Below are positions 5,461 to 52,919 of a stretch of DNA of 64,000 nucleotides, one piece after another (within the stretch, counting starts at the first letter, position 1; each line of letters begins with the position of its first letter). The stretch comes from Amphiscolops sp. MND2022 (taxonomy: Eukaryota), in NCBI GenBank assembly GCA_964187785.1, contig OZ076409.1, positions 45,820,001 to 45,884,000 on the forward strand. The letters are read 5' to 3'. Position numbers and translations under genes: made by a program. The notes beneath the pieces were generated by a model, which worked only from the letters and a program-made list of their open reading frames with translations, ran no database searches and was not told where the DNA came from.

Positions 5461-5859
5461 GGCAGGTGAGTTCGATAGCACTGATGAGGAGTATGGTAAC
5501 ATAGGAGAAAATGAGTGATGGTGCAATCTGGGGTAGAAGGGCGAAGGAACAGCACAAAACTGAAAAGCAAGTTACACATGAACATAGAGAAGGTGTATGA
5601 AATACGTTAAGTGAGTTAAGAAAGGAACATAAAGGGTTGAAACCCAAAAGATGAAGGAGTGACTGTTAAGAAAATTTGCAGTTGTATAGAACGCAGGCAT
5701 TAAAAGCCTATGGATTGATTGGCGCGTATTAAGAAAACTAAAAAGGAAAGTGGGGAAGTAAACAGGAGAAACAAGGAGGGCGGGCCTCTGGCCCTGCATC
5801 CAAGACAACTCAATCGGCATTGATATCAATAGAAGAAATTGATGCGATCGAAACGTCGT

Positions 5860-7250
5860 GGAGACCCTGTCGTGGAGTATTATTTCTAGGTTTGACCCGA
5901 AAAAGTGATCTCGGAGCGTGGTGTACCAAGTTGGTAAGAGGTTAATCGATCGTTCGGGTTCATAAATGGGTATGTGGATTTGGGAGATTTCGTATTGATG
6001 AAGCTGGTGTTGGAGGTGAGTGAGGCATGTGTATAGAGTTTCGTGCAGGAGTGGGTGTTTATTGGAGGCTCAGGTGCACAAGATGAAGATTTGATTGTTC
6101 CAGGGTGCGGTATGGGAGTGTTTCAAGCAAATGGCAGTGCCAACCGAGGGTTTTAAGCGGAATATTGCTTCCTGTCCATCTTCGCGAACGATGTATCGAA
6201 TAGTCGCCGATTGGGATTGTAGGTCGGCGGGACAACACAACACTAATGTGCCGGAGGCTTGTAGAATGTCCGTATCAGAGTAAGTAATCCACGGCACATA
6301 GTTTGGGCGAATTTTCGGTTGCGATATGAGCCTTTTCCCACTGTCCTTTTCATGATTATCTAGAGGTTTCGATGTCAAGTGTCCAAAAATCGCTTTGCGA
6401 GCCTCCCATATTGTGCGATGCAGAGGACGGTTGCCCATGTGTATGCACGACCAGCTGTGCATGATGGAGAGTGCTTCTAGGGTGGACAAGGCCGTATCAG
6501 GTGTGTATGTTAACCGGTCTAGAATACAAATTTCCGTTTGTCGGCAGAATGTGATGGCTATCAGTTGCAGCCATTGTTGGCTCAAGAATTTTCCGCGGTA
6601 TATGTCGGCTAGATGAAAACAAAGAATGTTGCTTGTCTCCACGAGAGTGCGTAAGTTCTCTAGGCATTATAACAACATAGTCGGTGAGACCATTAAGGAA
6701 TCATCGAGGGAGGTGATCAGGAGCCACCATCCCGCGAATGTTTGATATACGTCACCCAGAGGGGAAGCGATATGATATTTGTTCCATAACTGGTTTGCGG
6801 TGATGCAGCGAATCATCAGGGGGTTGCTGCATGTGTTATCTAGTTCTCCGAACCAGAATGAGGGTGGTAGAGGGGGAATGGTTGCTGCCAATGTGAATTC
6901 AAGTCCACCTTTTTCATGGCTTGTCCATTCCTTGAAGCGATATGTTGGACAATTAGAAGGAGAGAACTTGTGCATTTCTTTCAGCGTGGTTTCTAGAGGT
7001 GGTACAAGTCCAGATTCAGTGCTGGCATAAGTTTTCTCGATGGTCAAAATTATATGTCGGATGGTTGGTGGGGCTTTGGGTTTCTGTTGTTCCGCTCGTA
7101 CAGTCAAGATTTCGTTTTGAGGGTGGTTTTGCGCTCGTGCTAGCGTGAGTTCGCGAGCCGGAATCGCCGCTACCCGGGCCAGTCGTAGATTCGGGGGTTC
7201 CGTAACAACTAGCTGGACGCAACTACAGTTTACGGGAACCACAGGTTCCG
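5860..7250 (-). pseudogene. C-terminal Pol extension with two tandem TARG1/OARD1-like macrodomains
   Basis: WITYSDTDILQASGTLVLCCPADL...KPSVGTAICL...IFILCT*ASNKHPLLHETLYTCLTHLQHQLHQYEISQIHIP...WYTTLRDHFSG parallels the OARD1 sequence pattern. A more degenerate repeat (WWLLITS...CLENLRTL...WLQLIAITF..TEICILD) precedes it. Confidence 0.65.
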
Positions 7251-18073: not shown

Positions 18074-18092
18074 GATCCCTCTGTGGTCGCCA
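18074..18092 (-). promoter_or_regulatory. Primer-binding site, probably tRNA-Arg
   Basis: Minus strand reads TGGCGACCACAGAGGGATC, 16 nt inside the LTR end; it resembles the complement of a tRNA-Arg 3' end (TGGCGACCAC...). Confidence 0.8.
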
Positions 18093-18108
18093 TAAAAACT
18101 ATTCCAGA

Positions 18109-18527
18109 TGTAACGACCGGCTAGCGACGCACATCTAGGAAGAGTGACAATGCCTAGGATGCTTAAACAGGAGGAGGCCGTCGTCTTACTACATACCTAG
18201 ACACTAGTGTTTGGTCCCAAATTGGTCTTCTAGGGGGACTTTTCTGACGTCTAAGGAGGCTTCTCAAATTAGAGCTCCGAAGCGACGCGCCGGCACTCTC
18301 AAAGTCCGGAAACACCCCACAAGCCTGTAAAAACGATTTCTAAGGTTTTAGTACGCGTTTCTACGAGTTCCTACATACTTCCGAGGTCAAAAAAGTGTTT
18401 AGCTGGAAAACATCGTATTTGGTGAATAAGATCTGAAAAGACCTAGAATGTCATACATCATCCAAATACTCCAAGGAAAATGGGGAAATATTGAAGAAAA
18501 ACGGGGATAGGCCCCAATTACGTTACA
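18109..18527 (-). repeat. 5' LTR of element A (419 bp)
   Basis: 7-bp terminal inverted repeat TGTAACG/CGTTACA; PBS adjacent; a homologous diverged copy starts at 36885. The partner LTR is outside the window, so no TSD check is possible. Confidence 0.85.
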
Positions 18528-19621
18528 GTTTTCAATCCATCATCCATATTTTGCATCTGGCAATGCTCTGCAGATGTTGTTGATTTCCCAAGGGGATGGC
18601 ACAACATTCCGATAATCTTTCTGCTGATGTTTCTTCATCTTCTGGCAATTCTTCATCTTTTTCTGCAACTTTTTCACACGTGCTCTGTTTCTTGCTCCCT
18701 CTCCGCGTGGTCTCTCTTTTTGTTCATTCGTTTCGTACCTGCTAGGTCGGCCATTTTGATTCTTCTATTTTGACATCGCACATTTCGAATTTTTCATCGA
18801 AATTTTGTCATGCCAGTTGCTGACGTTACATAAAAAGTTCAAGGAATCTTGACTGGGGAAGTTTGTATTTTTTCAGATATCTGTTTCTGTAGGCGTGCCC
18901 TCTAGCTCTGCTGTGTGGACAAAGGTGTGAAGTTTCAATTTAGGCTTTCTTGAGTTCTGACAACTGTGCCAATACAAAACCGGGCCATTGAAAATATTCA
19001 TCATCACCCAGGTTTTCTGTGCAGATCTGAAGGATTCTTGCAGAACTTTGCAGATATCTGCAGATTCGAAGAAAACATGACCAAATCAGAAACACTATAA
19101 AAACCCACAGGGATGTCAACCGAACAATGAAAACGCTGAGAACTCCTGCGAAACCTCACTTATGTCAAAATGATGAAATTTTTTTCCGAGGCAATCTGTA
19201 CAAATCTGTAGAGATTACAGATCTTAACAGAGCCAAGCGGTGACTAATAAATTACCAAAACGTATTCCGAGTTACCAGCAATTACTCCAACAAAGCAAGT
19301 TCCCAAAATATCACATTATCAACAATTCTGCAGATCGATCTTTGCAGAAAAAATCCAGCAGATCTTCCCAGATTCGCAAAGATCAAATCATGGGCAATGA
19401 TGATTGATTGTAAATTGAATAAATACCTATACAAAGAACCACTTGATTTTCTGTCGTCTATCTAAACTTGATTGTGTTGAACTCAACAACGTAGTGCTAC
19501 AGGCAAGTTGTCTCAGGTTCCAGTCGATCAATCATATAGAGCTGTTGGAGCAATGAGTCAGGTTCGTTTCAACAGACGTGCTGGTTCTATTTTATTTTGT
19601 GAATACGTAATTACATTACTG

Positions 19622-21577
19622 TGTCGCAGGCTGCCGCCTGTGATGGTACAAGGACCACTACTACTGCAGAAGGACAGGATATAGCGGCCGGAACTCTACC
19701 AATATATTAGAGGTAAACATTAAAAACACAAACTTTGCTAGTATTTTTTAGTCTACAAGTTGTACTTGTTATCGTTGCTGATTTTACATTTAGTATATAG
19801 TTTGCTGATATTAGTCCGTTCATGCCGACATTTGAAAGTTCAGATGATGTATTGACAATTGTAAAAGTTAGAAGTGCAGTATGAACACGCTGTTATAGCA
19901 ATAGATAGGCAGCTAGGAAGCGTAAAGGAAACGAGTTCAAGTGAACGTAACTCCAATTCCGGAGACGTCACTTGAGCTCAACCTGTTAGCCAATCATATT
20001 CATCCATTTGAGTAATAGTAGTGCTGTTTTTAATTAATGGCCGGTTTAGGCCATATGCCGGAAATTCATCTTTATTAATTGGCGCTTTAGTCAAACGGCC
20101 GGTTCCGGCCTTAATGTTCAGATGAAAGAATATTAGTGCAGACACTGCTGTGCTCCGTTAAATAGTAGTCTAATCATGTTGCTGTACTAATTAAACGTTC
20201 ATTTTAGCTAATTGGCGCTTTGTTCTATCCATTCCAATATTAGGCCGAATAAGGCCATTTGCCTGACTTCTATCCTTTGTTGCTGTTGCCAATTGGACAG
20301 TGGCCGGTTAAGGCCTCTTTTCAATACTATTATTCAGATGCCAGTTACAATCATTTAGTATATTTTAAATGTCATGTATAGTTACAAGTACGTCGTAAAG
20401 ACTCATGTAGCTCTTGAAATTAATTGATGTAATCAATACCAATGTATGATGTTGCTACCAATATTGGCCCAAAGGACATGTCTGGCCTTATTTGCTAGTT
20501 GGCACGTGGAATCTGTGTGCATATTATATAGAGGTAAATATGTGCTGTTACATGTAACATTGCTGTATACAAGTTGATCTAGCCTGCTAACGGGGCACGT
20601 GCCGACACGAGATTGTCAGCATTCCTGAAATATTAGAGGCGTAAACATTTTAATCGATGCTATTTGATGTACCGTGTGCCTTTTGAATACTTGTTAAAGA
20701 TGTCAAAACAGGAATTTGAACGGCCGCGTGACCTTACGATCACAGTTCGGCGGCACTTTGATGCTTACATAGTTGAGTTAAGTCAGGTGCTTTCGGAATG
20801 TGCTTGTAACATTTTTTGACTGTTTGCATCATGTTTATCCCGCCCGAGGAAGTATATATAGAAACAACTTCCTTCGGGTGGACACAATTTTGTTTTGCTC
20901 CTAATACTCAGTTGATAACACTTTTACGTTAACAATCACCAATTCTGTTTTCCGGTTTTAATATTTTAACTATTCAACCCGGTTTAGTCTTGATGCCTAC
21001 TACTAGGAAACAAAAGAAGACAAGGAAATCTAGAGGATTAGAGATTCTCTCTGATATTGAAAACCTTGATAAAATGTTAGGAGAGAACCATTTTAATGGT
21101 ACGAAAGAGACGAAAGTCTCGAAGGAACCTCTATCAGGAGACAAGAAAGCGTCACAAGTAATAACTTGGAAAATGAAGGACTAGATCCTTATGCCGATTA
21201 TGGAAACCATAGAGTTAGGACTAGCGCCATTCATGACCACAATTCTGCAAGCGTAGATTCTCAAGCTGAGATTAACAAGCTTTCGAGTGATTTGAACTCT
21301 AGAATGTCTAGGGAGATGGATGAGATGATGAACAGTGTCAGTTCTCAAATCCAGAGAGCCATAAATGATGCCATTAATAACCAGGTTTTACCCCAAATCC
21401 AGAACGTTGTTATGGCCGGTTCAGGACAGGAGACTAGAAGAGGATGGGAGACATCTATTAATAGACCCGAAATTCACTCTGAAATTCAACAGAATCCGAA
21501 GGCCAAAACTAACTTTAATAGTGAACATAGTGAAAATCACCGTAAAGGTGAAAGGACACAGTGTGATGTTCATGACA
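19622..21577 (+). repeat. 5' LTR of element B
   Basis: Direct repeat of 34056..36011 with only scattered differences; TATA box at ~20853. Confidence 0.97.
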
Positions 21578-21595
21578 TGGTGACAGGAGACAACG
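21578..21595 (+). promoter_or_regulatory. Probable primer-binding site (tRNA-Leu-like)
   Basis: TGGTGACAGGAG immediately follows the LTR-terminal CA and is one mismatch from the usual Leu PBS TGGTGTCAGGAG. Confidence 0.6.
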
Positions 21596-22685
21596 AATCT
21601 CCAAATCTAGTTCCTGAGTTTCTCACAGGACGTATCCCATCAAGAAGTCATCTCAATCAGTCCTATGAGGACATCAACCTCGACACGATGATCCCAGCGC
21701 ACGAGAGAATTGCTACAGTTGCCGATTCTGATCCCATTACTAGATTGGCCGACGTCTTGACTACAATGCAGAATAGACCAACGGCACAACAACTCACAAT
21801 ACGCCCAGTCAACTCCAATACCATGACGTTCGACGGCAAGAGTAAGAAATTTGAGCTGTTCGAAGATCTCTTCCATACTATGATCAAGATGCAGCCAGAG
21901 ATGACCGAACAAATGAAAATTAATCATTTTCATTCATTGTTGAGGAAAAATGCTCTCCAAACATTGAGAAACATCAATACGACAAATCGACAAACCCTCG
22001 AAGACGTACTAGTCATTTTCCGACGAAAATACGTCAAACCTGAATCACAGGCAACCGCCAAGCATAAATGGCACCGCCTGATCTTTGATCCCAATACGAT
22101 GAAACTGCATGATTTCCTGAATCAAGGGGCAGAGAAAGCGTTTGGAGACCATGCGCAGAAAATGATTGACAGCTTGCTCTACGCAAAACTGCCATCAAAA
22201 CTCAAGCGGTCCGTCAACATGGCCAGATTAGAAAATGGCTCATACGATGAGATAGTTGCTCATTTGGAGAGAGAATTAGAACTCAACGCCCTGGAGGAGT
22301 CAGACGACCTACCAATGGCCACAATGACCTCCTCATCTACAAAACCTAAAACTCCTCTGTCCACAGGGCAAATGTCCGATATCACTTGTAAATATTGCAA
22401 GGAAAAGGGCCACATGGTCAAGGACTGCGAAAAACTGAAAAAGAAAAAAGAGAAAGATGCCCAACAAGGCAAGTCGACCCAGAAGAAAACAAATCCGGAG
22501 TAAAGCACTTGTGGCAAAAAGAATCATCCCGATGAAAGATGTTGGCAAGGTGCTGGTGCACATCTTAAACCCAAACGCACTAGACCCGAAGACTCAACTG
22601 ACAAAAAGCCCAATTCAAAGGCTCAGAAACCTCAGACCAAACCGACATCATCGAGCTCCCAATCCTCATACTCTAATGATGAGTC

Positions 22686-22692
22686 AAAAAAC
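22686..22692 (+). other. -1 ribosomal frameshift slippery site A_AAA_AAC (gag to pol)
   Basis: The heptamer directly precedes the gag TAA, and the -1 frame is open into pol ORF 22791..23651. Confidence 0.8.
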
Positions 22693-25600
22693 TAACTTCG
22701 CCACGACTCCAATATAACGAATTAATATCTGTCCGACAATACATCAGATCGGACCCTCCAACGCGAACTTTCCACCAATACAATCAGCAATTGATGGACT
22801 ATCCCTCTGTTGTCTGGCAGCAACAGATGGAAAAAGCTACCATCATCACCTACAATAACACCCATTTATTTCAGAAACCAATTCCTGTTTGGGACCCTGA
22901 TTACACCACTACCTTCACTACCCGGTTCAGGCCCATTCCCCTAATCGATGATTACAATCCGACATACATCGATCCAGACTACGGCAGAGATCCCTACTGG
23001 GACACCGAGCTTTACAACCAAGATTCGCTGCAATTTCAATATGTCCTGGACGATATTGACCATTACAGTAGAACAGTCCACGAAAATCCTCCAATTACCC
23101 ATAACAAGAAAACACGAGCGCTAATCAAAAACTGGCAAATGAATGATGGCACAAACCATCCAGTGTTCCCAAACCCATTGGGGACCGAGAATCCTGAAAA
23201 CAGTGGTGAAACCACGCCACAATCATTACTAGACGAAAAACAATTCCAAAACGTACTCATCACCAAAGATGGTGAACCAGACTGTATACCCCTGTCAACC
23301 AACATCAACCTCAAATGCAAGAAACGCATGCTTTATTTCCCAATGGACTTTGGGGAATTGACCATTGATGGATTATTAGACACTGGGGCACTGTCCAGTG
23401 CAATCCCTGAAATGGACCTCCGGAAAATTCGTCTTCTATCTCCACAATCTGTTATCCGAGAAGGTCCGCCTCCAAACTTCCAAATCATGGTCGCTAATGG
23501 GCAACTGGAAACTCCTAAGAGTACCATAAAGCTCAAATTCGAAGTTGGTGACATTGAGTTCCATGAAATCTTTATAGTAATGGAACATTTGACAGGACCG
23601 ATCATTGGACTAATGTTCCTTCAAAGAAATCATACAGTGCTGGAGACATGAGACAAGGAATCCTGAATTTCCCGTTCTTTTCAATGCAGCTTAAAACAGC
23701 TGACCACAAATACTCCAATGTTTTAGAACCGATTCTCAACCCCACTGAAATAACAATTCCGCCAAATGACAGAGTCCTAATTAGGACCAATTCCTTACTG
23801 TATCCTGAGAATGCGGTTACCGGAATTTTGCAACCGAGCGACCTTCTACATGAAGAAGGCGACATCACATTTTGCCCAGCCTTGGTCACTCTGAATGATG
23901 GCAATATAACGATACCAGTGAACAACTTCACAGACCACCCTTACAAACTCAAAAAGGGACTTCACATTGCCAATTTCTCAGTCATGACGCCAGAACAAAT
24001 GAAATATGTCAAACCAATAGATCCGGCATCAACCTGGCACCTTTTGCAAAACGACCAAGAACAAGCGGCCCATTATATCGGCAGTCTCATCAAGACAAAC
24101 AGAAATCCTCAAAATTCTGAAAATTACTGGTTCCCAACTCCAGAAAACCCTGGACACCCCGAGGAACACACACCTATCCAGAAAGGAATCCTACGCAAGT
24201 TACCGGCCTTACAGGACCTGGAGACACTCGACCCCACTACAGATGCAGAATCGCGTGCAAAATTCCTAGAAAACTTTGACTGGAAAGATTCCACCCTTAC
24301 TCCTGAAGAAAAGGAGAAAATTGAGGAATTGTTAGTGGAATTCCATGACATCTTTGCACGACACTGATTTGATATAGGCATGAACGAGGAATTCAAGGTG
24401 AAATTAACGCCTAAGGACGATTCCCCAGCCTATAGTCAAAGCCTTCCAGCTCCTATCAACTTGAAGGAGGACATCCTAGTTGAATTAGCCATGTTACACA
24501 AATATGGCATAATAACTACACTACCATTTTCGAAATATGCGAGTCCAATATTTGCACAAAAGAAACCGAATGGGAAACTCCGACTCTTGGTTGACTTGAG
24601 GAAAATCAACAACCTCATCTCGGATGATTATATCAACAATAATCACCCCGTCAGTACACTAGTTGATGCTGCCCAACACTTGGCAGGCAAAAAAACTGTT
24701 TTGTAAATTAGACTGTTCGCAGGCATACCTTTGCCTACCAATGGCCGACCAACGCTCAATCGAAATGTTGGCTTTCAATTTTGCCAGTCGCACATTCGCT
24801 TACAGACGTTTAGCACAAGGCCTTTGTCGGTCACTATCCGCTTTCTCGTGTTTCATGAGGGAATACCTCGACAAAGTCATTAAAGCGGATCAGTGTGCCC
24901 AGTATGTGGACGATATCGGCATCGCAGCCAATGATGCTGACCATCTCATAACGAACCTGAGAGCTACGTTCAAATGCATTCAGGAAGCAGGCCTTAAGTT
25001 AACAATGCACAAATGTCACTTCGGTGCAAAAGAAATTGATTTTCTCGGACGGACTATTACCCCCACAAGGCGTCAAACCCCAGAAACAGAATGTGCAAAA
25101 CTTTATCGAAAAAACCAAATTCCCGAAGTCGAAAAAGGCTTTGCAACGCTACTTGGGATTCTTGAACTACTACAGAAATTATGTCCCAAGACTTTCAGAA
25201 CGCCTTGCTCCATTCTACAAGATGCTCAAAAGTGACGAAAAAGTCCTAGTATCGAAAGAATTAGTCCAACAATTCGAAGAAATCAATAGAGCACTAGACA
25301 AATGTTGCGACTTGGCCCTACAGCAACCCATTCCGAACAAGCAAATAGCACTAATGTCTGATGCAAGTTTTGGTGCAGCCGGGTACGCGGTCCTAATTGA
25401 AGACGACCCAAGCCAGAAATTTACATCACTCAGAAAATCATATGCACCAGTCGCATATGGATCAAAAACTTTCACCCCAGCCCAGATCAAGTTGTCAATT
25501 TATGCCAAGTAATTCCTTGCAATTTATTTTGCATTCAAAGAATTTGGCCATATCTTCTGGGGAGCGCCCAAACCAGTCATTATCTTAACTGACAACAAAG

Positions 25601-27899
25601 CTGTAACACGATTTTTCCAAACGAAAATAATACCCCCAGCACTGTGGAACGCATGTGACTATGTTATCCAGTTCAATTTTGTCATTGCGCACATCCCGGG
25701 GGCACAAAATACAGCTGCCGACTATTTGTCCCGATTGGAAGCAAATCCGAAGGACAACCTGGTGATGAAAATTCGCGAAGATGTACAAACACTGCCAATC
25801 GAAATCAATGTCCAATCCGCAGGGGTGTCACAAGAAGAACAAATCTTCTACACCAACGACGACGATGAGACAGAGGAACAGTATTGGGCAAGAAAAGAAG
25901 CAATCAAGAAAAATCCAGCAACTGATGAACCCACTGTTACCAAACAAACTCTGTCAACAAATCTGGTCAAGCAACACCCCGATATCCAAGTCCGATTAAG
26001 GAAAACGAACCAGATCATTATTGAGCAATCCAAAGATGCAGTATTACAACAATTGAAGGCAAAACTCCTTCATGAAGATTATTCAGAAGACATACTGCAA
26101 CAGGATGCCCGATACAGACACTATGCAAAAATTCTGGAACGAATTGTACTAAAGGATGAAATCCTGACAAGGCAATATTTTGATGAAACAGGGAATGTTA
26201 AATACCATCAAATTTTGCTCCCGCAACACTTACTCCAGGACTTGCTCCAATCTCTTCACAGGACAGCGCATAAACATCCTGCGATTTCAAAAATGCTGCA
26301 GGAAATTCGACAGAGGTATTACCACCCTAACATGGCTAAACATGTCAAAAAGTGGGTAGAAGGGTGCGAACAATGTGCCAGAGACAAAAGAGTCCCTAAC
26401 GCAACAATTACACCTGAACTACTCAACTTGCCCGAATGGGACCTTGGACCTGAAGACGCCATGCAAATTGACCTATTGCCGAATCTCCCCCCAAGTGGTG
26501 GGTATGAAAACGTCTTATCAGCAATCGATGTATTTTCCAGATATCTGTTGGCCTATCCCCTTACGGACGCATCAGCGATCAATGTAGCAAAAGCGCTCAT
26601 TGACATCATGACTAAACACTCATATCTACCAACGACTCTTATCACTGATAAAGGTACTGCATTTACTTCTACAATTATTGCGGAGGTTACGCAGATTCTG
26701 GGCATCACACTCAAATGTGCCACGACAAAACACCCGCAGACAATTGGGAAATTGGAGCGAACTCATGCCTCATTGAAAACAAATCTCAAAATGGCATGTG
26801 AGGAATATCGCCGACAATGGCACAAATACTTGCCATTAGCAGTACTGAATCATAATACTAGTTATCACGCCAGCATCGGTTGTGAGCCGACGAGAGTATT
26901 TCACGGAAGAATTCCATTCAATATCTTGGACCACTAGCTTGGAAATAATCCTAACGAGCAGATCAACCCCACAACCGAATTTGCTGAAGAAATCCAAAAC
27001 CGGACAAAAATCCTGATTGACAAAACGAAGCAAACATTATGCAGTCGTATATCAAGTACAAAGAATTTTATGACCGCAAAGCGAAAGCCGCTCCACTAAA
27101 GGAGAACGAATACTGTTTTGTCTTACAGCCGAAAGCGGATAATCAAGGATCAAAAATTCCATTCCGCGATTACCGTTGGGTTGGACCATTTGTAGTCCAA
27201 AAAGTTTTGCCAAATGAAAACTATATAGTACGACGGATTAACACGAACAGAACTCAAATTTTGCATCGGATCCGTCTTAAAAAGTTTGTCCTCAATCAAC
27301 CGCTTGAAGACAATTTCCGAGAACAACGGTTGCAGCCAGACGAAGAAATTGTCATTCCGCAAGATGATTTATATATCATAACGTGGGAAACCGAATTTGG
27401 CGAGCAGCTAGTTACACAAGGAAGCGAGACTATTCCGACTAGCACGCCGAATGGCGAACGGCCGAATGCGGCAGAAACGAATACAAATGACGTAACCGAG
27501 AATGAAGCGGATTACATAATCACGCGAGAAGTAACGAACAACGGCAATGCAGCGCAAAGCCGGAATGACCGCTTAAATGATGACGTCACTGAAAGAAATG
27601 AATCTACTGCAGTCACAGAAAATGAAGAATCTGATTGGCCGAATCCGACCGTTTCCCCAAAAAACCAAGAAAAATCATTGCCGAATACGGCAGATAGACT
27701 GAAAAACGATGAAAATTTTTCAGAAAGAAACTTGACGAATGAAAACGATACACAAAATTCTCCAAACAGGGGGGATGATATTATCGTGCCCGAAATATCT
27801 GAAAACGATGCTAGAAATGAAAGTCTGAGCCCTAGAGGAGGAAAATATAACCTCAGGCCTAACCCCAACCCAAACTACTCAGAAGACTTCAGATACTAA
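22692..27899 (+). pseudogene. pol: pol of element B (protease, dUTPase-like spacer, RT, RNase H, integrase, GPF motif, acidic tail); several stops and frameshifts
   Basis: LLDTGA; QYVDDIGI; SDASF; H..H..C..C and IDLL/ITDKG/ERTH integrase motifs; WVGPFVV. Confidence 0.95.
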
Positions 27900-28126
27900 G
27901 AATTGAATTTCTTCCCGAAAATGGGAATTCTCTTCTATTCATTCCTTTTATCCTTTTTCTGGCCCCTCAAAGTATCTTTTGCAATAAATAATTGGGGCAT
28001 TACAAATGATCCCTTACAAAGAAATAAATATGGGATCAAGGCAACAACGAACAAAATGAATATAAATACGAAACAGAAAATGAACAAAGCATACAGTCTA
28101 CAAGTACATGAATACATATGTACACA

Positions 28127-31100
28127 TTAGTTCTTAGAAGATCCCTGGACAAGTTTCTTGGAGGCAGACGAGATAGTGGAATTACTGCTGCCCATTCTTT
28201 TCCGTTGTGTCCGGGAAGGAAACTTTACGGCAGAGTCATCCGGCACGGAAGAGGCAGTTCCTTTCCCCAGACGAACAGCCCGAGTGGGGGAAACAGCAGT
28301 GACGGTCTTATAGGAGGCAAGAAGGCTCTTGTAGATCTTGGACCTACCGAACTCATCCACAAAGGTCCATTGATCGTAATCGGGGGAGAAAGCTGAACGC
28401 TCGAAGGAAGAACTGAGAGCTGAGAACTTTTCTAAATTGGCATCAGAGCAACAATACGAAATGGAATCAGGCACGCAAGAAAGGTAACTCTGACAGGGCA
28501 CTACCAGGTCAGCAAAACGGCGTCGGTGTCCAGATGTGTCAACACTCCCAATTGATACTGGAGGATATTGGGGACTTTGACCTGTCAGACACAAGCAGCA
28601 CAGCTTGAAGAGATGAAAAATGTGCTCATGAGTTTGAAAAAACTCGAGCCGCATCAGGAAGTCTATGAGGTCACTGGAATTTTCCAGAGATCAAAATCTG
28701 GAGGATAATTGACCCGCAGGTGATCCAACAAAGCCAAATACTCATCTCGACAGATGTTCTCATTCTCACTGGAGACCCAAGAACGAAGCTGAAAGGTCGA
28801 ATGTAGCACCTCAAAATGCCGGAGTCCGACCTCTGTCGGCCTTTTGAAGAGGACAAAAGGGTCAAAGGCGGTGAACCCCTTGATCACCTCGGAACTCAGG
28901 CCGGCTTGGTTGAGAACCTGCTTAATCAGGTACTGAATGAAGTGCAGTCCCTCTTTGACAAAACTGCTGGTTGTTTCTGCAGCTGTCTTATCAATGCAGC
29001 GGCCTTCTCGGATTTTTTGTTCAGATGAACAACATCAGCACACTGTTTGCTGGCAGTAGCTATCCGATTCGTCAATCGGTGCCGGATAAGGAAATCGTCC
29101 TCACTGATGAATTTTCCTTCGCTCACGTTGAAATTAAGGAGAAGGAACCACGAATTCTCGAGAGGGATGGTCTCTGGAAAGTAGCATCTGGCACATAGCT
29201 TGGAGACGGAGCGACAGACTTCTCCACAGAGGAAAAATGATGCATCTCGTCGGCCCTGCAGATTGACAACGAAACTGGAAACATCTGGAAATACAACGGA
29301 CAAGATCATGAAAGGAACAAAATGTTCGCGTGAACCCATGACAACATGCCTACTATGTTAGTAGTCCAAAGAATCAAGGATCAAGGACCGTCCAGATAAT
29401 GCCTTAAAGTATCGATATGGACATGTGGCGGTATACTCACAATCACTGATTATGCGTTGGAAGAGCTCCAACTTGACGACGAAGAAAGAGTCGCAGATAA
29501 GAGACCACTCGAAACTCTGCACTTGATTGTGGACCCCCTGCATTCCTTGATGTGGAGTGTGTGATGTCAAGTACTGCCTGACTGCCTTCCAATGTTTCAC
29601 GAGTTCCCGGCAGAGATTGGGTAAACTCGACAAGTCCAGTTTGCAGGTATCAATGGCCTAAATGGACCCAAAATGCCTTTTGCCCGTACCTACCCCCTAA
29701 CCCTTTGCGCCTTAGGTTTGGACTTGAAATACTAACTTGTGCTAGCTCAGGGGATTGCAGGACCCAGTCCTCGCCAGTAGCTGCCCCAAGTGAAACCATG
29801 AGGCATTTCAGAACAGAGAAAAAGTCTATTCTGCCAAACACACTGTAAGTTGGCTTGTGCATCATCTTCTGAAGTTGCAGGTGTTCGAAGCGAAAACAAC
29901 TCTGGACAGCCCGAGGGAAGAAAGCATTATGGTCGATAGTCTGGATCAGCTCCACTGGACATCCTGAGCAAGCAACTATATCGGCCTTGGTGGACACTAC
30001 TGAAAGAAGTCTGGAAAGAGACCCCAACTCCCCAGTGAGATCAGTGGAAGGAAGCCCACTTCGGCACACGTAGATTCGACAGAGAGTGTCGCCCTTCCAG
30101 AATTTGACAGACATGAGTCTGTTCACGCCCTCATCCTCAAACTCGATGGCAAAGTGCTGTGTGGTAGCAATCTGCTCCGCTAAATCACTCATTGCACAAT
30201 TGAAAATGTGCTGGAAGATGGCCTGGAAAGGAAAAGGAGGATTACGAAATGTGTGGAGGACTTTGGCCTCCCTCAAGCAGTACGCAAACTCAAAAGAGAA
30301 CTTACCGAAATTCTTTCCTCGCCCCAATAGATGTCGCAGTAGCTGATCTGGTAGTTGGTCAAAGAGCTTATTTGGGACCACAATTTGCGGAGCATTCCAA
30401 TATCTCCAAGTTGTTGTACGAAGTCCCCGATGAGATGGATCTGCGTCTTGGCCCTTGATTCAGGGGTGACAAGTGTGGTCGACGTACCTTTTATGAAATC
30501 ATCGTAAAAGGGGAAGCGTTCTCCGATGTCCACCAGCTCGACGTGCATGAAGTGGCGCCTCTCCTTTGCCAACTCTATCTCCGAGAGGATCTTCCCATTA
30601 CGGCCTCTCACTCGATGTTGCACCTTTCCAGACACGGAGTGGACGCTTTTAAGGTGCTCGTAGCGCCATCTTTGATCCCGTCTGAGGTGCTTCTCAGTAC
30701 TGTGGTGTCGCAAGATTTCTAAATTCCCCCTAGTCTTCACGGAGATATTCTTTTTGCATATATGGCACCACACCATATATGGATTGTGAAGGGGATCTGC
30801 TGGTCCGGAAATGAATGAGCGCGTCCAACCGATCTTAGAGAAGAACCCTCTCTCATAGGAACACCTCGAGTCTGCTTGCGTCGCTTCCTTTTGGGCGCTT
30901 TACCCGAACTTGAGGCCAAAGGCGGGGCGGGAGAAGTTTGAATCCGCAGCTCAGAAAGAGTGGCATCAAGGCTTGACTGCTCCGTAGATTCAAAGCCTGC
31001 TTGGGAAGGATCATCTTGTGTAACCTTACGAGGAGTAGAAGCAGGTCTGAAAGGCTCCTTGAAAGCCTGTGAGATGAGCGCCATCTCGCCAGAACTATCA

Positions 31101-32310
31101 GTATCGTTGAAGGAGTCCAGCCCTCTGTCTTCTTGCCCTGAACTCGATCCAGCAGACGTATCGGTTCCCGATTCAGGGAAATTTTCAGTGCGCGAGCTGT
31201 CTTCAGAATCACTGTGCAGACCAGGTCCTGGAGTTTGGGCTCTTGGCCTGACACGGAATTGATCAGTTCGGGAACTGGAAGTGACCGGAGCTCCGCGAAC
31301 TGCCCCAATCACCATCTGTTCCATGGCAGTAAAGGACATTTTCAACGTCTCATCAGTAAGAACTCTCAAAAGATGATATACTTGTGGCTCAGTGAAAGCC
31401 ACTGTTCTATGGCCGAGAGGGAAGTTGATGGTGGAGGCATCCTCATCAAAGTACTGTTTCAAAATGGCCCGGCTGCGGCCAGAGAGCTCCCTGACTTTGG
31501 AATCTTTCCCTGTAGATGTTGACGGACGCATGACATCGGGACGATGGATGGAAGTATCAACTGATGATTCTTCTGCAGTTTCAGTCGCATTTCCTACTGG
31601 TTGGAAGTTGTATAGGGCAGGTCCACTTGCCTGGCTGGATGTGTCACCGGCTTCCTCAGTGCCAGTCACGTCGTCCAAATATATCACATCCGTGACTCCT
31701 GTTGGCAGTTTGGGGGCATCACATACAGAGGAACTCTCATCAGTCTCATGCTGAAGGAATGACGCTGCTGACACGTTGGCAGAAGTTCCACAAGTTGTCA
31801 ACAACTCTAGCAATGCCGTCAGAGAGGAGGGAGCAATCGTTAGACCAGCTTCTAGCTGTGTTAAGTTCAGCCCTGCAGACTCACTGGGCAAGTTCTTGGT
31901 TGGAGTGCTGGTTTGGAAAAACAATGTAGAATTTTGGGGTTCAATCCCAGCAGCAAGCTGGCATTCTCTTCAATCTCCTGTTCCCTGATTTCAGAATCCT
32001 TGGCAACTTGTCCCTCTTCCTGTTCCTGGACTTGCTCAAGAAAGAGAACTTTCTCATCTGCATACGCAGTAACGTCAACGTTACTGTCAAGACAGCTAGG
32101 CGACCTTGGAGGTCTTGTTGGAGGGAAGGGTGGAGGCGATGGTTGCGGCCTACGGACAACGTTGGACACTCCTGCAGAAGTAGTACTCAGGACACGCTCA
32201 CTGGGAATATCTGCTGATGTGTTGGCTTGGACTTGAGGATCATCTCCTGGCTGATTTGCTAAACAAAAAGAGATGAAATTTGGCGGTGAGCTTCCTTGAA
32301 AGAAATCCAT
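28127..32310 (-). pseudogene. Antisense spliced accessory gene of element B (~1300 aa): disordered N-terminus, NLS, BED/TTF-like zinc finger, degenerate hAT-transposase-like body
   Basis: Seven colinear ORF pieces; phase-0 GT-AG introns at 30223..30305 and 29658..29736 restore the frame; WCHICKKNISVKTRGNLEILRHHSTEKH; KAPKRKRRK. Confidence 0.75.
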
Positions 32311-33358
32311 TTCACCGCATTAGAAAACTTCCGGAAGTGTTTGAAAATTTGAATGAAAAACGTTATCACGTGTTCATTGACGGAAACAGGAAGCACTTTG
32401 TGAACAAATTTGACCCTGATTAAGTTAGATTTAGTTCAAAAATAAAACAAACCAACTTTCAGACGAAGACATTCTGGGGCAAGACTGATTGTAGGGAATG
32501 AGTCCTTGTTCGACTGAAATGGATAGGGGAACTTGGCCGAGTCCGGCTGAAGAAGGAGATCTGGGATACTCTGAAGAGTAGAGCTGACGGAAGAAGAAGT
32601 GGACGTACAAGGATGAATCTCAGTTGGGAGGATACAAATAAAAGAAACAGATGTAGAGTAATCAGAAATGGAATTGGATTGGAATTTTAATGTAAAAGAA
32701 TTGAAGAATTGGAGTTCGTGGCTGAAGATTATTACCAGACTAATATTATGGATTATGTACATATTTATTTTGTACATGGAGTCTGCCAGCGAAGTGTACA
32801 AAGAACTTTGTTATTTACAGCTTATTTAGTTAGAGGCCGGTTATGGCCGTTTGCCCTGTTTTGTTTAGCCGTTTCGTCCAGTTACCCTAGTTACCCTTAA
32901 CTAGAATTTTCGCCATTTTGAGTTATTTGGATTTAATATTTTCGCCATTTTATTATTTAATCTTACAACTTATCGAAGCTTAATGCTGATTGGCTGAAGC
33001 CTTTTTGAAAGAATTCCGCGTCGCGTGTCGTTAATTGCCATCAGGCAAACAGTTAATTACCCACTTGAAACGGGTGAAGATAATATTTACAACTCAAGCG
33101 TCATCAACACCTCTCAGAGTGATGGTGTTGATAGGGGGTAAACACTGAGTTATCAAAGGAAGCCGACTAATTATAAAATTCCATTCAGGAATGTTTACGT
33201 CGGATCAGGGCGATTTACCGATAACTCGTCCGCCAAAACGAATTGCCGGGAAAAGGCCCGAGTCGACTAAATTTTTGAGTTGGTAAATTCATTCCACTTT
33301 GAAATCTCACTCAAGCTAGTTAAATTCTCCAGTCAGCAAAATTGCTAAGAAACTCATA

Positions 33359-34144
33359 ATGCAAAGATATAACCTAACTAAAAAGCTCTTTGATCTTGAA
33401 GAAGACTCAGAAAGCTAAGTGGATTCAGTGATCTACATCTCAAGTGACAGTGAGAATGAAGTCTCAAGTTCCTGGGACTCGGACTGGTCCACGGATACAG
33501 AAGAGATCATAGAAAGAATAGAACGAGAGGTGAAAGCTGCTCCAATCCCTATAGCGGGACGCGCAATGACGACAGAAGATTTAGACGATGAGATGACAGC
33601 TGGACCAAGCAGTGCTTGGCCTGTTCCGCCCTCTACCCCTAAACTGGGATTCGAGTATTTTAACAAGGAAATGTGATTGGCTCCATCGAAAAAGCAAAGA
33701 AAATCAAAAGTCGAGCTCTGTGCAACTGTATTACCCGTTCTGGAGTCCCCACTGTCTCCTCCCGACCATGAAAGGGGACCGAGCATTGACACCCCTCTTG
33801 TGCAGTCAACCTCTGGAACTTTCTATGCGTCCTATCATGTGCAAAATACCGAGCCTTATCAGGACATGAGCCAAAATTTGCACACAGGCTGTATGGTATG
33901 CGGCAAATCGAGAGATCAAATAAAAGCAGAAAAGGTGATCTGGTACATGCAAAGATCGACACCTAGCAGTGAGCCCGCTTATATCACCGCCCTACGACGA
34001 GAGGCTTATGAAAATGGCTTGAACGCAGGAAGCTTACTTTTTCTAACACCCGCAGTGTCGCAGGCTGCCGCCTGTGATGGTACAAGGATCACTACTACCG
34101 CAGAAGGACAGGATATAGCGGCCGGAACTCTACCAATATACTAG
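33359..34144 (+). pseudogene. Small sense accessory ORF (~260 aa, two in-frame stops) ending inside the 3' LTR
   Basis: ATG at 33359 is in frame with ORFs 33419..33676 and 33677..34144; VIYISSDSE motif, PSKKQRKSK and CMVC. Confidence 0.65.
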
Positions 34145-36011
34145 AGGTAAACATTAAAAACACAAACTTTGCTATCATTTTTTAGTCTACAAGTTGTACT
34201 TGTTATCGTTGTTGACTTTACATTTAGTATATAGTTTGCTGATATTAGTCCGTTCATGCCAACATTTGAAAGTTCAGATGATGTATTGACAATTGTAAAA
34301 GTTAGAAGTGCAGTATGAACATGCTGTTATAGCAATAGATAGGCAGCTAGGAAGCGTAAAGGAAACGAGTTCAAGTGAACGTAACTCCAATTCCGGAGAC
34401 GTCACTTGAGCTCAACCTGTTAGCCAATCATATTCATCCATTTGAGTAATAGTAGTGCTGTTTTTAATTAATGGCCGGTTTAGGCCATATGCCGGAAATT
34501 CATCTTTATTAATTGGCGCTTTAGTTAAACGGCCGGTTCCGGCCTTAATGTTCAGATGAAAGAATATTAGTGCAGACACTGCTGTGCTCCGTTAAATAGT
34601 AGTCTAATCATGTTGCTGTACTAATTAAACGTTCATTTTAGCTAATTGGCGCTTTGTTCTATCCATTCCAATATTAGGCCGAATAAGGCCATTTGCCTGA
34701 CTTCTATCCTTTGTTGCTGTGGCCAATTGGACAGTGGCCGGTTAAGGCCTCTTTTCAATACTATTATTCAGATGCCAGTTACAATCATTTAGTATATTTT
34801 AAATGTCATGTATAGTTACAAGTACGTCGTAAAGACTCATGTAGCTCTTGAAATTAATTGATGTAATCAATACCAATGTATGATGTTGCTACCAATATTG
34901 GCCCAAAGGACATGTCTGGCCTTATTTGCTAGTTGGCACGTGGAATCTGTGTGCATATTATATAGAGGTAAATATGTGCTGTTACATGTAACATTGCTGT
35001 ATACAAGTTGATCTAGCCTGCTAACGGGGCACGTGCCGACACGAGATTGTCAGCATTCTTGAAATATTAGAGGCGTAAACATTTTAATCGATGCTATTTG
35101 ATGTACCGTGTGCCTTTTGAATACTTGTTAAAGATGTCAAAACAGGAATTTGAACGGCCGCGTGACCTTACGATCACAGTTCGGCGGCACTTTGATGCTT
35201 ACATAGTTGAGTTAAGTCAGGTGCTTTCGGAACGTGCTTGTAACATTTTTTGACTGTTTGCATCATGTTTATCCCGTCCGAGGAAGTATATATAGAAGCA
35301 ACTTCCTTCGGGTGGACACATTTTTGTTTTGCTCCTAATACTCAGTTGATAACACTTTTACGTTAACAATCACCAATTCTGTTTTCCGGTTTTAATAATT
35401 TAACTATTCAACCCGGTTTAGTCTTGATGCCTACTACTAAGAAACAAAAGAAGACAAGGAAATCTAGAGGATTAGAGATTCTCTCTGATATTGAAAACCT
35501 TGATATAATGTTAGGAGAGAACCATTTTAATGGAACCGAAAGAGACGAAAGTCTCGAAGGAACCTCTATCAGGAGACAAGAAAGCGTCACAAGTAATAAC
35601 TTGGAAAATGAAGGACTAGATCCTTATGCCGATTATGGAAACCATAGAGTTAGGACTAGTGCCATTTAGACCAGAATTCTGCAAGCGTAGATTCTCAAGC
35701 TGAGATTAACAAGCTTTCGAGTGAGTTGAACTCTAGAATGTCTAGGGAGATGGATGAGATGATGAACAGTGTCAGTTCTCAAATCCAGAGAGCCATAAAT
35801 GATGCCATTAATAACCAGGTTTTACCCCAAATCCAGAACGTTGTTATGGCCGGTTCAGGACAGAAGACTAGAAGAGGATGGGAGACATCTATTGATAGAC
35901 CGGAAATTCACTCTGAAATTCAACAGAATCCGAAGGCCAAAACTAACTTTAATAGTGAACATAGTGAAAATCACCGTAAAGGTGAAAGGACACAGTGTGA
36001 TGTTCATGACA
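34056..36011 (+). repeat. 3' LTR of element B
   Basis: Direct repeat of 19622..21577, followed by TSD TACTG. Confidence 0.97.
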
Positions 36012-48060: not shown

Positions 48061-48193
48061 GTTTCAACGGCGTGTCTGGGAAAGTTTTTATACCTACGCG
48101 GGATTGATATTGCCTAACACTTTTTCTCGAAGCTTTTGAAAATCAACTTTGTTAGTTTGTGTTCCAACGGATTAAGTTTTAATAATGTTGCCT

Positions 48194-50329: not shown

Positions 50330-51060
50330 TGACATGAGTGCTCTCTAGGTCTTCATTCCTGTTTGAGACCCTAGAAACTCATCTCTTGAGTTGCTTCTGA
50401 ATCTGCGTTCTAAGGCTTCTTCAGATCTGTACCCCTGTCCTCTAACCGGAGCCTCCCATCTTCTCTCGGGCCCCTGTCCTTGTCTGGATCTTAATGTAGC
50501 CTGAATCTGAGGCAGTATTTGATCACTTTTTGTTTGCCTCATTTATAGCTCTTTCAATCTGGGAACTCACAGTACTCAAAAAAACTCCCATCTCTTTAGG
50601 ATTTCTTTGATTTAATTCTCCTGACAGCCTATTGAATTCACTGCTAGAATCTGTTTCCGTCAGGCTTTGGCCATTTTGGGCATAATTTCTAATCTCGCCT
50701 TCGCGTTAGCTAGAGTGTGAATCAGTATTCTAATTCATTGAAGCATCATGACACGGACTATCAGGCTTTCTGCCAAAGTTACTAGACTCGCTTTCCCTCT
50801 CTCTAAGTTATTTCCTCCTAACTTTTTGTCATGATTCTCAATGTCAGATAACATATCTGACTCTCTAGACTTTCTCGCTTCCTTTTGCTTCCTTGTGGTA
50901 GACATCAAGAAAATCCAATAGTAAATAGTAAATTATTCGAATCGGAAAAATTAATTCCGACAGAGATTCACAACAGGTTTACACTCAATGAAGGTCGTGA
51001 TAAATTTTCAGCTCCGGGCAGTAAGAGCTATATATACTCCCTCCAGCAGGACACTGACTT
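50330..51060 (-). repeat. Old LTR relic related to element B, carrying the gag N-terminus
   Basis: Minus strand encodes MSTTRKQKEARKSRESDMLSDIENHDKKLG and QILPQIQ; TATATA at ~51030; similarity ends at an LTR-end-like sequence near 50330. Confidence 0.8.
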
Positions 51061-52919
51061 TTTTTCATGATTGGATAAACAAAGCCACCTTCCAAGTTTT
51101 ACATGTACAGAAGAACACACAAACATCAAAGCTACTTCTTTGGAAAGCGCCTGATTAGGACATAAGTCCCATGATAGCGTGACAAAGGAGTGAAAGATAG
51201 TTTGACACGTGACATTATAAACTTTTCTTGGGTGAAACAACAAAACAGTAATAAATGTCAACAACGCATCAAAGAATCATCCTGCACTAAGAATTACAGG
51301 AATGTGAACATTCCTTTGCAAGCACGTGCCTACGCACGCAGGCTGAATATTTGTTTGAAATAATAAATTTAGTACTGTGACCTTTATTTTTTCATGTTAA
51401 AATATCTACTTCATGGTGGCCAGAAAACGCTTTCGGACTAAAATCTGGACCTGACATTTCTGTCAGAAAGGTTCCAAGAGCCAATACATCATATGTTCAG
51501 CTTCGATAGGCAACAGATCATCGTTATTTTTATTGAATACTTATGTGCATGAAAAAAACATTAAGTACTTTCAGATCAAAAGCACATCATTATTGGTTAA
51601 GTAAAGCGTTCCGCATAAATAAGACAAGTATTGGCCGGAGTCGGCCGTTTGACTTGCGTCACATGAGTCGCAGCTTCATTTGGCCAAATGGTTGTAACCG
51701 GCATAATAAAATAATACTGCATAGCAACAAAGTATTTGTATAAATCTGATTGGTTGATTTTTGAACTGAACTCAACGCTGCCGTGAGAAACGTTTCCGCA
51801 TTTGAACACATTTCCTTTCCGCTGATTAATTGCCTACAATTTTTATTAGCTCTTTCAAAACACTTTACATACATCGTAACTTCAATAGGTTCGCCCTCTT
51901 GATTTGAATACCTCAAATCGTAATATTTTACCAGACTAATCTAAATAATCGAATCTAACAACGATATACGAAGGTAGCAACATCTGAAATGAAAAGTTTT
52001 CTTATTAAAGTAAAGAGTTTTTGTTTTGTTGAGTGTTGGGCAGAGTTCCAGGTGCGATTTCTTGCCCAGTTGTTGTCGTCGTTGTCGTTGTCCCGTCATA
52101 GGCGGCAGCCTGCGACACATCCTGTTAATCATATTTAGTTTTTGTTACTGAGCAGTGTTAAAATATAATGAAACAAGACGCCCGCTAAGCATCGGGATAT
52201 TTTCCTCTTAAAACGTAACGCATTATCACGGATTCGAACCCACGACCTCAAATCTGCCAGGTGACTTGATGGAGTTACTAAATGTGTGTTACTAAATGTA
52301 GTAAATGTGTGTTACTAAATTTTGCCGTGTTACTAATTGGAGAAATAAAGTGGAGTTTCAGTAGAATTTGTAAAAAAACGCAACACAGGTTATGATTTTC
52401 CTCCGCCATTATATGTGGGCAGAAAATAATAATAAAGTTAATCTTCTGATGTGGGTTCGGTTGTTGGTTGAAAAACATTAATCATCATGAACCTTAGACA
52501 TTTTCCGCTTGCAAAATTGTGCTAGAAAGGCTTTTCGCTTGAAGGTTTCACATAAGGAAGAATGTACCATATGGTTGACATTATGTAGTCTCTGCGTTTA
52601 TAATCGCTTAAATTCAATTATAATCAAAGACCGCATTGTATGAAACATATCTTTAAAAGAAGACGTTCCCTCCAAACTGCAAACTTTGTATCCCTCCTCG
52701 CTTGCATTGTTAAAAAGATTATTTTTTACCTCAATATTCCAAACATAACTGTAACTTTTGGGCATCAAGATTATAAAAAACTACGGAAATATTGTTTTTT
52801 CCTTCTTGAACTTCCAAACTCTTCGTTGTTGAAAACTTCCAATTTCCTCCCATCCAGTTGCTTGAACTTAGAATAAACAGTTTTCTGATTAAGCAGTTTT
52901 TCAAGTAGGAGTGCGCCAG

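What the first reader, a model, noticed from the sequence alone, without database searches (positions are those of the whole stretch)
20039..20315. GGCC-N6-GGCC dyad repeated four times per LTR and once in the internal promoter region
Seen: GGCCggtttaGGCC (20039), GGCCggttccGGCC (20097), GGCCgaataaGGCC (20243) and GGCCggttaaGGCC (20302), repeated in the 3' LTR (34473, 34531, 34677, 34736). GGCCggttatGGCC also occurs at 32835, between the two divergent accessory genes. Fixed half-sites one helical turn apart with a variable spacer, in AT-rich DNA, suggest a dimeric protein site. Inference: a candidate target of the element's own zinc-finger protein, analogous to VANC/VANDAL cis-motif anti-silencing or a viral transactivator.
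Basis: partly seen in the sequence, partly recalled or inferred. Interest (0 to 1): 0.7.

Follow-up and report, generated by a model that had tools for sequence, protein, structure and literature searches.

The report
Retrotransposon's candidate self-regulation DNA site
A jumping gene, probably from an animal, repeats one palindromic 14-base signal in its main promoter and between two extra genes it carries, one of which encodes a zinc-finger protein that may bind that signal and switch the element on, but the binding is not shown.

Summary
The motif is real: 10 exact GGCC-N6-GGCC hits against 0.35 expected, and no other spacer is enriched. Four lie in the U3 of each 1,956-bp LTR of a Ty3/Gypsy element. 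One lies at the midpoint between two divergent accessory genes. The spacer is not free: the site reads GGCCG-R-N-T-N-N-GGCC, and five more one-mismatch sites lie along the element. The antisense gene encodes a family-wide C-x2-C-x16-H-x5-H finger, BED/hAT-like only at lead level; both accessory genes are broken in this copy. Best reading (0.42): a DNA site for the element's own finger protein, wired like foamy-virus Tas (internal promoter plus U3) and like VANC or TnpA. Rivals: a host factor such as Smad on GGCCG (0.25), an RNA hairpin (0.13), a duplication relic (0.12). Binding is untested, and conservation rests on two LTR families because no other copies' DNA could be fetched.

The parts
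19622..21577 (+). 5' LTR, 1,956 bp, TG...CA; holds the last ~29 codons of ORF3 at its start and the first ~195 codons of gag at its end
34056..36011 (+). 3' LTR; 27 substitutions and 2 indels against the 5' LTR, none inside the four sites (about 0.8 expected there, so uninformative)
19617..19621 (+). target-site duplication TACTG, repeated at 36012-36016
21578..21595 (+). primer-binding-site-like stretch starting TGG right after the 5' LTR, inside the gag frame; the tRNA was not identified
   Evidence: inference
20039..20052 (+). U3 site 1 (3' LTR copy 34473); degenerate counterpart in the solo LTR at 51690-51703
20097..20110 (+). U3 site 2 (copy 34531), perfect GGCCG-N4-CGGCC; 20 of 22 bases shared with the solo LTR over 20089-20110
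20243..20256 (+). U3 site 3 (copy 34677)
20302..20315 (+). U3 site 4 (copy 34736)
19990..19994 (+). CCAAT box just upstream of site 1, also in the solo LTR
20594..20602 (+). E-box-type GGCACGTGC, identical in the solo LTR
20853..20860 (+). TATA box shared with the solo LTR; the four sites start 551-814 bp upstream of it; start of transcription inferred, not shown
21414..21427 (+). one-mismatch site in the gag-coding part of the LTR (copy 35848); not kept in the solo LTR
20993..27899 (+). gag-pol (zinc knuckle, protease, RT, RNase H, integrase), broken into several frames
27460..27692 (+). near-match sites in the integrase C-terminal tail: 27460 and 27637 (one mismatch), 27679 (two)
28127..32310 (-). 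antisense accessory gene, apparently spliced: long acidic low-confidence N-terminus, zinc finger, further exons; broken by frameshifts and stops in this copy; one-mismatch site at 31467
30687..30767 (-). C-x2-C-x16-H-x5-H zinc finger, BED-like at lead level
32311..33358 (.). intergenic region between the divergent ATGs, presumed bidirectional promoter (TATA-like at 33172; CCAAT on the minus strand at 32993)
   Evidence: inference
32835..32848 (+). internal exact site, starting 525 bp from the antisense ATG and 524 bp from the ORF3 ATG
32535..32548 (+). second internal site, one mismatch
33359..34144 (+). sense accessory ORF3 (~261 aa in relatives), ends inside the 3' LTR; two in-frame stops in this copy
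50330..52117 (-). solo LTR of a sister family (flanks GGATG/GGATT), 69% identical over aligned columns and 52% over all columns of the U3 alignment
51633..51646 (-). exact site in the solo LTR, counterpart of U3 site 2

Best explanation
The 14-mer is a double-stranded DNA site, best written as two inverted GGCCG half-sites four bases apart with a looser right half, bound by the zinc-finger protein of the element's antisense gene. Proposed circuit: the internal bidirectional promoter has basal activity and makes the finger protein and ORF3. The finger protein binds the site in that promoter (autoregulation) and the four-site U3 array 550-810 bp upstream of the TATA box, and activates or shields the LTR so that genomic RNA is made. 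Shown: the motif, its positions, its retention, the conserved finger. Inferred: promoter activity, hAT origin and loss of catalysis, binding, and the sign of the effect.
For: Enrichment at one spacer only. Best non-coding block between two LTR families, 20 of 22, ahead of the TATA block (18) and the E-box block (17). Both half-sites are kept 16 of 16 across the duplicated module against 71% elsewhere in that alignment. The internal site sits at the midpoint of the two ATGs in DNA with no detectable homology to U3 (85 of 300 shuffles score as well). Within one mismatch the internal region has 6 strand-hits (5 sites, one a training site) against 0.17 expected, 0 of 200 shuffles; the other Gypsy element and flank have 1 against 0.28. 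The finger family is large (243 clusters; 873 representatives) and its ligands are conserved. The finger region folds at pLDDT 86, and BED domains of ZBED1, ZBED3 and Hermes recur among its weak Foldseek rows. Nine of ten listed Atlas rows other than the first carry hAT/ZBED-type families or names, with one row named otherwise but carrying DUF4371. Precedent: two Hermes BED domains bind a quasi-palindrome cooperatively (PMC10368747); hAT-derived CGGBPs mostly prefer CGG (PMC8097297); Tas binds an internal promoter and U3 (PMC3185757).
Against: No result links protein and motif. BED/hAT identity is unproven: no zf-BED Pfam hit in 59 of 59 members, Foldseek E 2.4-5.9, VIA best Z 4.5 with RNA-enzyme fingers of TUT4 and TUT1 as the only rows over the finger, Atlas scores under 0.9. 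Conservation rests on two LTR families, and the sister LTR keeps one exact site of four. The 16-of-16 figure comes from an alignment anchored by the motifs; with motifs masked a different 24-nt block at a 133-bp offset is found. Spacer fit among one-mismatch dyads is 5 of 11 inside against 2 of 20 strand-tests outside, p = 0.067. Host DNA at 52118-64000 also shows 6 two-mismatch strand-hits against 0.79 expected, 0 of 200 shuffles. Integrase-tail sites may reflect Pro-Asn repeats. GGCCG is a Smad element (PMC5727232).
Confidence: 0.42

Rival explanations
1. The sites are an enhancer array for a host transcription factor, as is usual for LTRs, working with the CCAAT, E-box and TATA elements. 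A named candidate is Smad, whose 5GC element includes GGCCG and GGCGC.
For: All 6 non-redundant exact sites begin GGCCG; U3 holds GGCCG 10 times on both strands and GGCGC twice, five of them within 20039-20110. Smad 5GC motifs act in clusters (PMC5727232, passages). The other conserved U3 blocks are ordinary host-factor boxes. The finger family varies at several positions around the helix while site 2 is kept between two families.
Against: The Smad passages read describe clusters, not a fixed dyad; the strict spacer and the R-N-T bias are unexplained. The other Gypsy element in the window has no exact site. No paper in the library holds the motif as written.
Confidence: 0.25
2. The motif acts as a short RNA hairpin (4-5 bp stem) on the sense transcript, bound by the finger protein or Gag for packaging, export or 3' processing.
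For: Every exact site folds as a hairpin; the solo site (z -2.85) and site 4 (z -2.2) have extended stems. All 4 orientation-informative near-matches are element-sense. The only VIA rows over the finger are TUT4 and TUT1. 27679 swaps the outer pair and 32535 keeps it by G-U.
Against: 5 of 7 windows folded are not more stable than shuffles. Stems do not covary: of 7 sense-strand 4-bp stems with this loop in the element, 5 are GGCC. 21414, 27637 and 31467 break the stem. The array sits among promoter boxes.
Confidence: 0.13
3. The sites are a neutral relic: one GC-rich palindrome multiplied by old U3 duplications, with the internal and coding matches due to chance and codon use.
For: Pairs 20039/20097 and 20243/20302 align as one module (score 51, 0 of 300 shuffles). 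The sister LTR lacks the second pair. The tail sites coincide with Pro-Asn codons.
Against: Half-sites outlast their flanks. The internal exact site is not U3-derived. CCG is used in 6 of 13 tail prolines against 22 of 117 elsewhere in gag-pol. The CpG is kept in 6 of 6 sites.
Confidence: 0.12
4. The binder is ORF3, or the sites are left-over subterminal repeats of a hAT transposon that inserted into the element.
For: ORF3 is equally conserved (187 clusters) and has a C-x2-C and an acidic N-terminus. hAT BED sites lie in subterminal repeats (PMC10368747).
Against: No terminal inverted repeat with an 8-bp duplication flanks the antisense gene (best 7 of 12). Most sites are in the LTR, outside any such insert. 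ORF3 has no Pfam or Atlas match.
Confidence: 0.08

Closest known systems
Foamy-virus Tas with its sites in the internal promoter and U3 (PMC3185757, passages)
   Same: Accessory genes between pol and the 3' LTR, one ORF running into the LTR; the same motif upstream of the accessory genes and, in more copies, in U3.
   Different: Gypsy element with no env found; the finger gene is antisense and spliced; no homology to Tas seen; promoter activity and binding not shown.
VANC/VANDAL anti-silencing (PMC5735166, passages)
   Same: Short motif repeated in one orientation, mostly in non-coding parts, multiplied by duplication, in an element with an accessory gene.
   Different: VANDALs are plant MuDR DNA transposons; their motifs are 8-9-base non-palindromes at high density; no VANC domain detected; demethylation untested.
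Transposase-derived regulators: TnpA, AtMu1 (10.64898/2026.08.24.746577, abstract and passages); hAT-derived CGGBPs (PMC8097297); Hermes BED (PMC10368747)
   Same: Zinc finger followed by a helical region and a possible RNase H-like exon; CGG-containing palindromic site.
   Different: Those are DNA transposons or host genes; the preprint does not mention retrotransposons or LTRs (0 occurrences); hAT membership here is a lead only.
Antisense additional ORFs of Gypsy elements: Retand TRP28, Grande gene23, Boty (PMC11963269, PMC7264820, passages)
   Same: Conserved antisense gene between pol and the 3' LTR with its own upstream promoter; a transposase-related, probably DNA-binding domain in Retand.
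   Different: Plant and fungal elements with other domains; no cognate site described in the passages read; here a divergent gene pair and a shared motif.
Smad 5GC element (PMC5727232, passages)
   Same: GGCCG half-site, clustered.
   Different: No fixed dyad spacing or spacer bias in the passages read.

Membership tests
Ty3/Gypsy LTR retrotransposon | Two LTRs with TG...CA ends and a short target-site duplication | tested here: met
   1,956-bp LTRs, TACTG on both sides
Ty3/Gypsy LTR retrotransposon | Order gag, protease, RT, RNase H, integrase | tested here: met
   Pfam on the successive frames; integrase matches PFV integrase and Ty3
Ty3/Gypsy LTR retrotransposon | Primer-binding site and polypurine tract | tested here: inconclusive
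   TGG follows the 5' LTR; the 26 bases before the 3' LTR are not purine-rich
VANC/VANDAL | MuDR-type DNA transposon as host element | tested here: not met
   The element is an LTR retrotransposon
VANC/VANDAL | VANC-homologous protein | tested here: inconclusive
   No significant Pfam family for either accessory protein; no direct comparison with a VANC sequence was possible
VANC/VANDAL | Motif arrayed in one orientation, mainly non-coding, family-specific | tested here: inconclusive
   5 exact sites per element (one LTR counted) are non-coding and sense; 4 of 5 one-mismatch sites are in coding DNA; specificity tested only inside this window
VANC/VANDAL | Protein binds the motif and removes DNA methylation | not testable with these tools
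   needs binding and methylation assays
BED-finger / hAT-derived DNA-binding protein | Four conserved zinc ligands in a Cys2-His2 finger | tested here: met
   C 54, C 54, H 57, H 56 of 59 rows, gaps counted as misses
BED-finger / hAT-derived DNA-binding protein | BED fold or zf-BED profile match | tested here: inconclusive
   0 of 59 zf-BED Pfam hits; ZBED1 BED rank 2, E 2.4, rmsd 2.7 over 46 columns; Hermes BED E 5.9; CGGBP1 also escapes Pfam (PMC8097297)
BED-finger / hAT-derived DNA-binding protein | RNase H-like transposase domain downstream | tested here: inconclusive
   Atlas leads to ZBED1_RNase-like, DUF659, DUF4371 at 0.78-0.82; low-confidence model, Hermes at E 1.7-1.8
BED-finger / hAT-derived DNA-binding protein | Loss of the DDE triad | tested here: inconclusive
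   No invariant acidic residue after the first strand of exon 2 in 16 sequences; the position was assigned by eye from a recalled hAT pattern
Nested hAT transposon | Terminal inverted repeats with an 8-bp duplication | tested here: not met
   Best 7 of 12 with a 7-of-8 duplication; old ends could have decayed
Foamy-virus Tas system | Same element upstream of the accessory genes and in U3; accessory ORF extending into the 3' LTR | tested here: met
   (sequence layout only)
Foamy-virus Tas system | Retrovirus with env, internal promoter inside env | tested here: not met
   No env family among 18 frames scanned
Foamy-virus Tas system | Transactivator binds both promoters | not testable with these tools
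   needs binding and reporter assays
Smad 5GC element | GGCCG or GGCGC, three or more within 200 bp | tested here: met
   five within 20039-20110
Smad 5GC element | Smad binding and TGF-beta/BMP response | not testable with these tools
   needs assays

The most novel reading that the evidence does not exclude
An animal Gypsy lineage captured a hAT transposase, kept it catalytically dead as a spliced antisense gene, and uses its BED finger as a private sequence-specific activator or anti-silencing factor. The factor reads a palindrome placed in its own bidirectional promoter, in the LTR and along the element, possibly with ORF3 (SUMO-interaction-like motif) as co-factor. This would be a Tas/VANC-type circuit built from a DNA transposon inside a retrotransposon.
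Probability: 0.33. Interest if true: 0.8.

Novelty: new variant of a known kind. Interest (0 to 1): 0.58.

Why it matters
Antisense extra genes of Gypsy elements are common and their function is stated as unknown (PMC7264820, PMC11963269). The best-documented transposon-encoded, sequence-specific anti-silencing factors are from plant DNA transposons (PMC6719617, PMC5735166). A defined protein domain and a defined 14-base site in one element make the question 'do LTR retrotransposons encode their own transcription factor' testable in a single binding assay. With hundreds of diverged family members, finger and site could also be tested for co-evolution.

Tried and rejected
No whole genome is held. 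No sequencing run was listed, so no reads were laid. No related locus was found with the finger alignment in viral or metagenome contigs or with the ORF3 alignment in metagenome or prokaryote genome contigs, so family-wide motif conservation stays untested. The 844-aa model was low-confidence (pLDDT 48) and matched nothing. Profile searches of solved structures gave no significant hit. The homodimer prediction for the finger region returned no verdict. ORF3 has no Pfam or Atlas match. A nested hAT with ends was rejected. An LTR origin of the internal region was rejected. Only 8 longest-contig lengths are shared between 119 finger and 119 ORF3 values; with no null model this is not used as proof of linkage. 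LTR-to-LTR identity at the sites is uninformative. Earlier scan notes by sequence and place gave nothing. A recalled guess at the host lineage was used as a search word; the listings showed no description of this element and the host was not determined.

Full report
Observation. GGCC-N6-GGCC occurs 10 times in 64 kb against 0.35 expected. Spacer 6 has 10 hits; no other spacer from 0 to 15 has more than 4. One LTR holds 4 sites against a shuffle mean of 0.003. Allowing any of 16 palindromic 4-mers and 16 spacers, 1 of 500 shuffles reaches four; placing the LTR's 14 GGCC at random gives four pairs at one spacing in 1 of 20,000 trials. These tests treat the four sites as independent, which they are not entirely.

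The element. It runs 19622-36011, with 1,956-bp LTRs, TG...CA ends and a TACTG duplication. Domain order is gag, protease, RT, RNase H, integrase, so it is Ty3/Gypsy. A rhodopsin-type GPCR nearby suggests an animal host. Between pol and the 3' LTR are two divergent genes. One is antisense from 32310 and apparently spliced; the other, ORF3, is sense from 33359 and ends inside the LTR. Both have large families of longer, uninterrupted relatives: 243 clusters among 896 candidates and 187 among 201. Both are broken in this copy, as is gag-pol.

What the motif looks like. The six non-redundant exact sites read GGCCG-R-N-T-N-N-GGCC in element sense. They fit two inverted GGCCG half-sites four bases apart, with the left half exact in 6 of 6 and the right half exact in 2 of 6. 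The spacer is therefore constrained and directional. The four U3 sites start 551-814 bp upstream of a TATA box; the internal site starts 525 and 524 bp from the two ATGs. One-mismatch sites lie at 21414, 27460, 27637, 31467 and 32535. In the internal region this gives 6 strand-hits against 0.17 expected (0 of 200 shuffles), counting one training site; 1-19621 has 1 against 0.28 and 36012-50329 has 1 against 0.16. Against this, 52118-64000 has 6 two-mismatch hits against 0.79, and the spacer fit among one-mismatch dyads is 5 of 11 inside and 2 of 20 strand-tests outside, p = 0.067.

Signs of constraint. The tenth exact site lies in a solo LTR of a sister family (52117-50330, minus). Its U3 is 69% identical over aligned columns and 52% over all columns. 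The 22-base window ending in site 2 scores 20, second only to the coding LTR start (21) and ahead of the TATA (18) and E-box (17) blocks. Site 1 is degenerate there and sites 3-4 are absent. In the main LTR the pairs 20039/20097 and 20243/20302 align as one module (0 of 300 shuffles) with half-sites kept 16 of 16 against 71% elsewhere. That alignment is anchored by the motifs; with them masked a different 24-base block is found. The internal region shows no homology to U3, so its site probably arose separately. This is two families only. No other DNA could be had.

The candidate binder. The antisense protein has a long acidic low-confidence N-terminus, then C-x2-C-x16-H-x5-H with ligands kept in 54, 54, 57 and 56 of 59 rows (the 59 were my choice from the 389 proteins fetched, the window frame included). 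The 177-residue finger region folds at pLDDT 86. Foldseek finds nothing significant, but BED domains recur: ZBED1 at rank 2 (E 2.4, rmsd 2.7 over 46 columns), ZBED3 and Hermes further down. VIA lists the fingers of TUT4 and TUT1 at Z 4.4 and 3.7. Atlas rows for the finger plus exon 2 are mostly hAT/ZBED families at 0.78-0.83, below the reliable range. Pfam finds no zf-BED in 59 of 59; human CGGBP1 also escapes Pfam (PMC8097297, parts 1-2 of 3 read). No invariant acidic residue follows the first strand of exon 2 in 16 sequences, which would fit a dead transposase, but I placed that position by eye from a recalled pattern. No transposon ends flank the gene. A BED/hAT origin is likely but unproven.

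Mechanism. I put 0.42 on the site being bound by this protein, in a loop where the internal promoter makes the factor and the factor acts on that promoter and on U3. Two Hermes BED domains bind a quasi-palindrome cooperatively in AT-rich context (PMC10368747, passages). Most CGGBP motifs contain CGG (PMC8097297). Transposases and dead derivatives act as sequence-specific activators (10.64898/2026.08.24.746577, abstract and passages). The same wiring is described for foamy-virus Tas (PMC3185757, passages). A host factor gets 0.25: GGCCG and GGCGC are Smad elements that act in clusters (PMC5727232, passages), and five lie within 20039-20110, but this does not explain the fixed dyad. An RNA hairpin gets 0.13: orientation is uniform and two windows fold well, but 5 of 7 do not beat shuffles and stems do not covary. 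A neutral relic gets 0.12, and ORF3 or a hAT relic 0.08.

Comparison and novelty. It is not a VANDAL or a foamy virus; it may work like either. VANC motifs are non-palindromic, dense, same-oriented and spread by tandem repeats (PMC5735166, passages). Antisense extra ORFs are known in plant and fungal Gypsy elements with function unknown (PMC7264820, PMC11963269, passages; PMC13547354, passages). A 2019 review names VANDAL as perhaps the most convincing transposon-encoded suppressor of silencing (PMC6719617, passages). The listings of searches showed no LTR retrotransposon with a BED/hAT-like accessory gene and cognate site, and one search found the motif as written in 0 papers. The library lacks most subscription journals and no supplements were read, so absence is not established. 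Unchecked scan notes describe fungal Gypsy elements with antisense zinc-cluster genes beside palindromic U3 arrays (e1-7123520, e1-7124087); they are leads, not support.

Verdict. The feature is real and probably functional (about 0.85), most likely as a DNA-binding site. Its link to the element's own finger protein is plausible and directly testable but not shown. New variant of a known kind; interest 0.58.

Noticed in passing
window 20993-21577 and 34056-34144: The LTR is coding at both ends: gag starts ~195 codons before its 3' end and ORF3 ends ~29 codons inside its 5' end; the sister solo LTR has the same layout.
   Followed up: partly
window 34030-34055: No purine tract precedes the 3' LTR; the bases there are pyrimidine-rich and lie in the ORF3 frame.
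   Followed up: no
window 33419-33450: ORF3 has a V-I-Y-I-S-S-acidic stretch in 65 of 74 full-length relatives, resembling a SUMO-interaction motif (recalled pattern).
   Followed up: partly
P0035 residues 253-323 (window about 31200-31470, minus): A conserved, confidently folded helical segment upstream of the finger (pLDDT 80-90) with no fold match; possible oligomerisation module.
   Followed up: partly
window 23567-24367: Weak dUTPase-like hit between protease and RT (E 0.046).
   Followed up: no
window 533-15400, minus: A second, different Gypsy element with a 2-kb tandem duplication (1407-3424 / 3420-5436) and long 3' ORFs of unknown kind; no exact site.
   Followed up: partly
window 52118-64000: Six two-mismatch strand-hits of the motif against 0.79 expected; two lie in a duplicated ~1-kb repeat and two are one site read on both strands.
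   Followed up: no
window 48246-48460: Perfect 107-bp inverted repeat with a 1-base loop.
   Followed up: no
window 43660-46438: 1.4-kb tandem duplication close to a run of N; possibly an assembly feature.
   Followed up: no
window 55553-55768: 55-bp inverted repeats 106 bp apart, MITE-like.
   Followed up: no
window 58867-59253: Rhodopsin-family GPCR exon (E 1.6e-8), which points to an animal host.
   Followed up: partly
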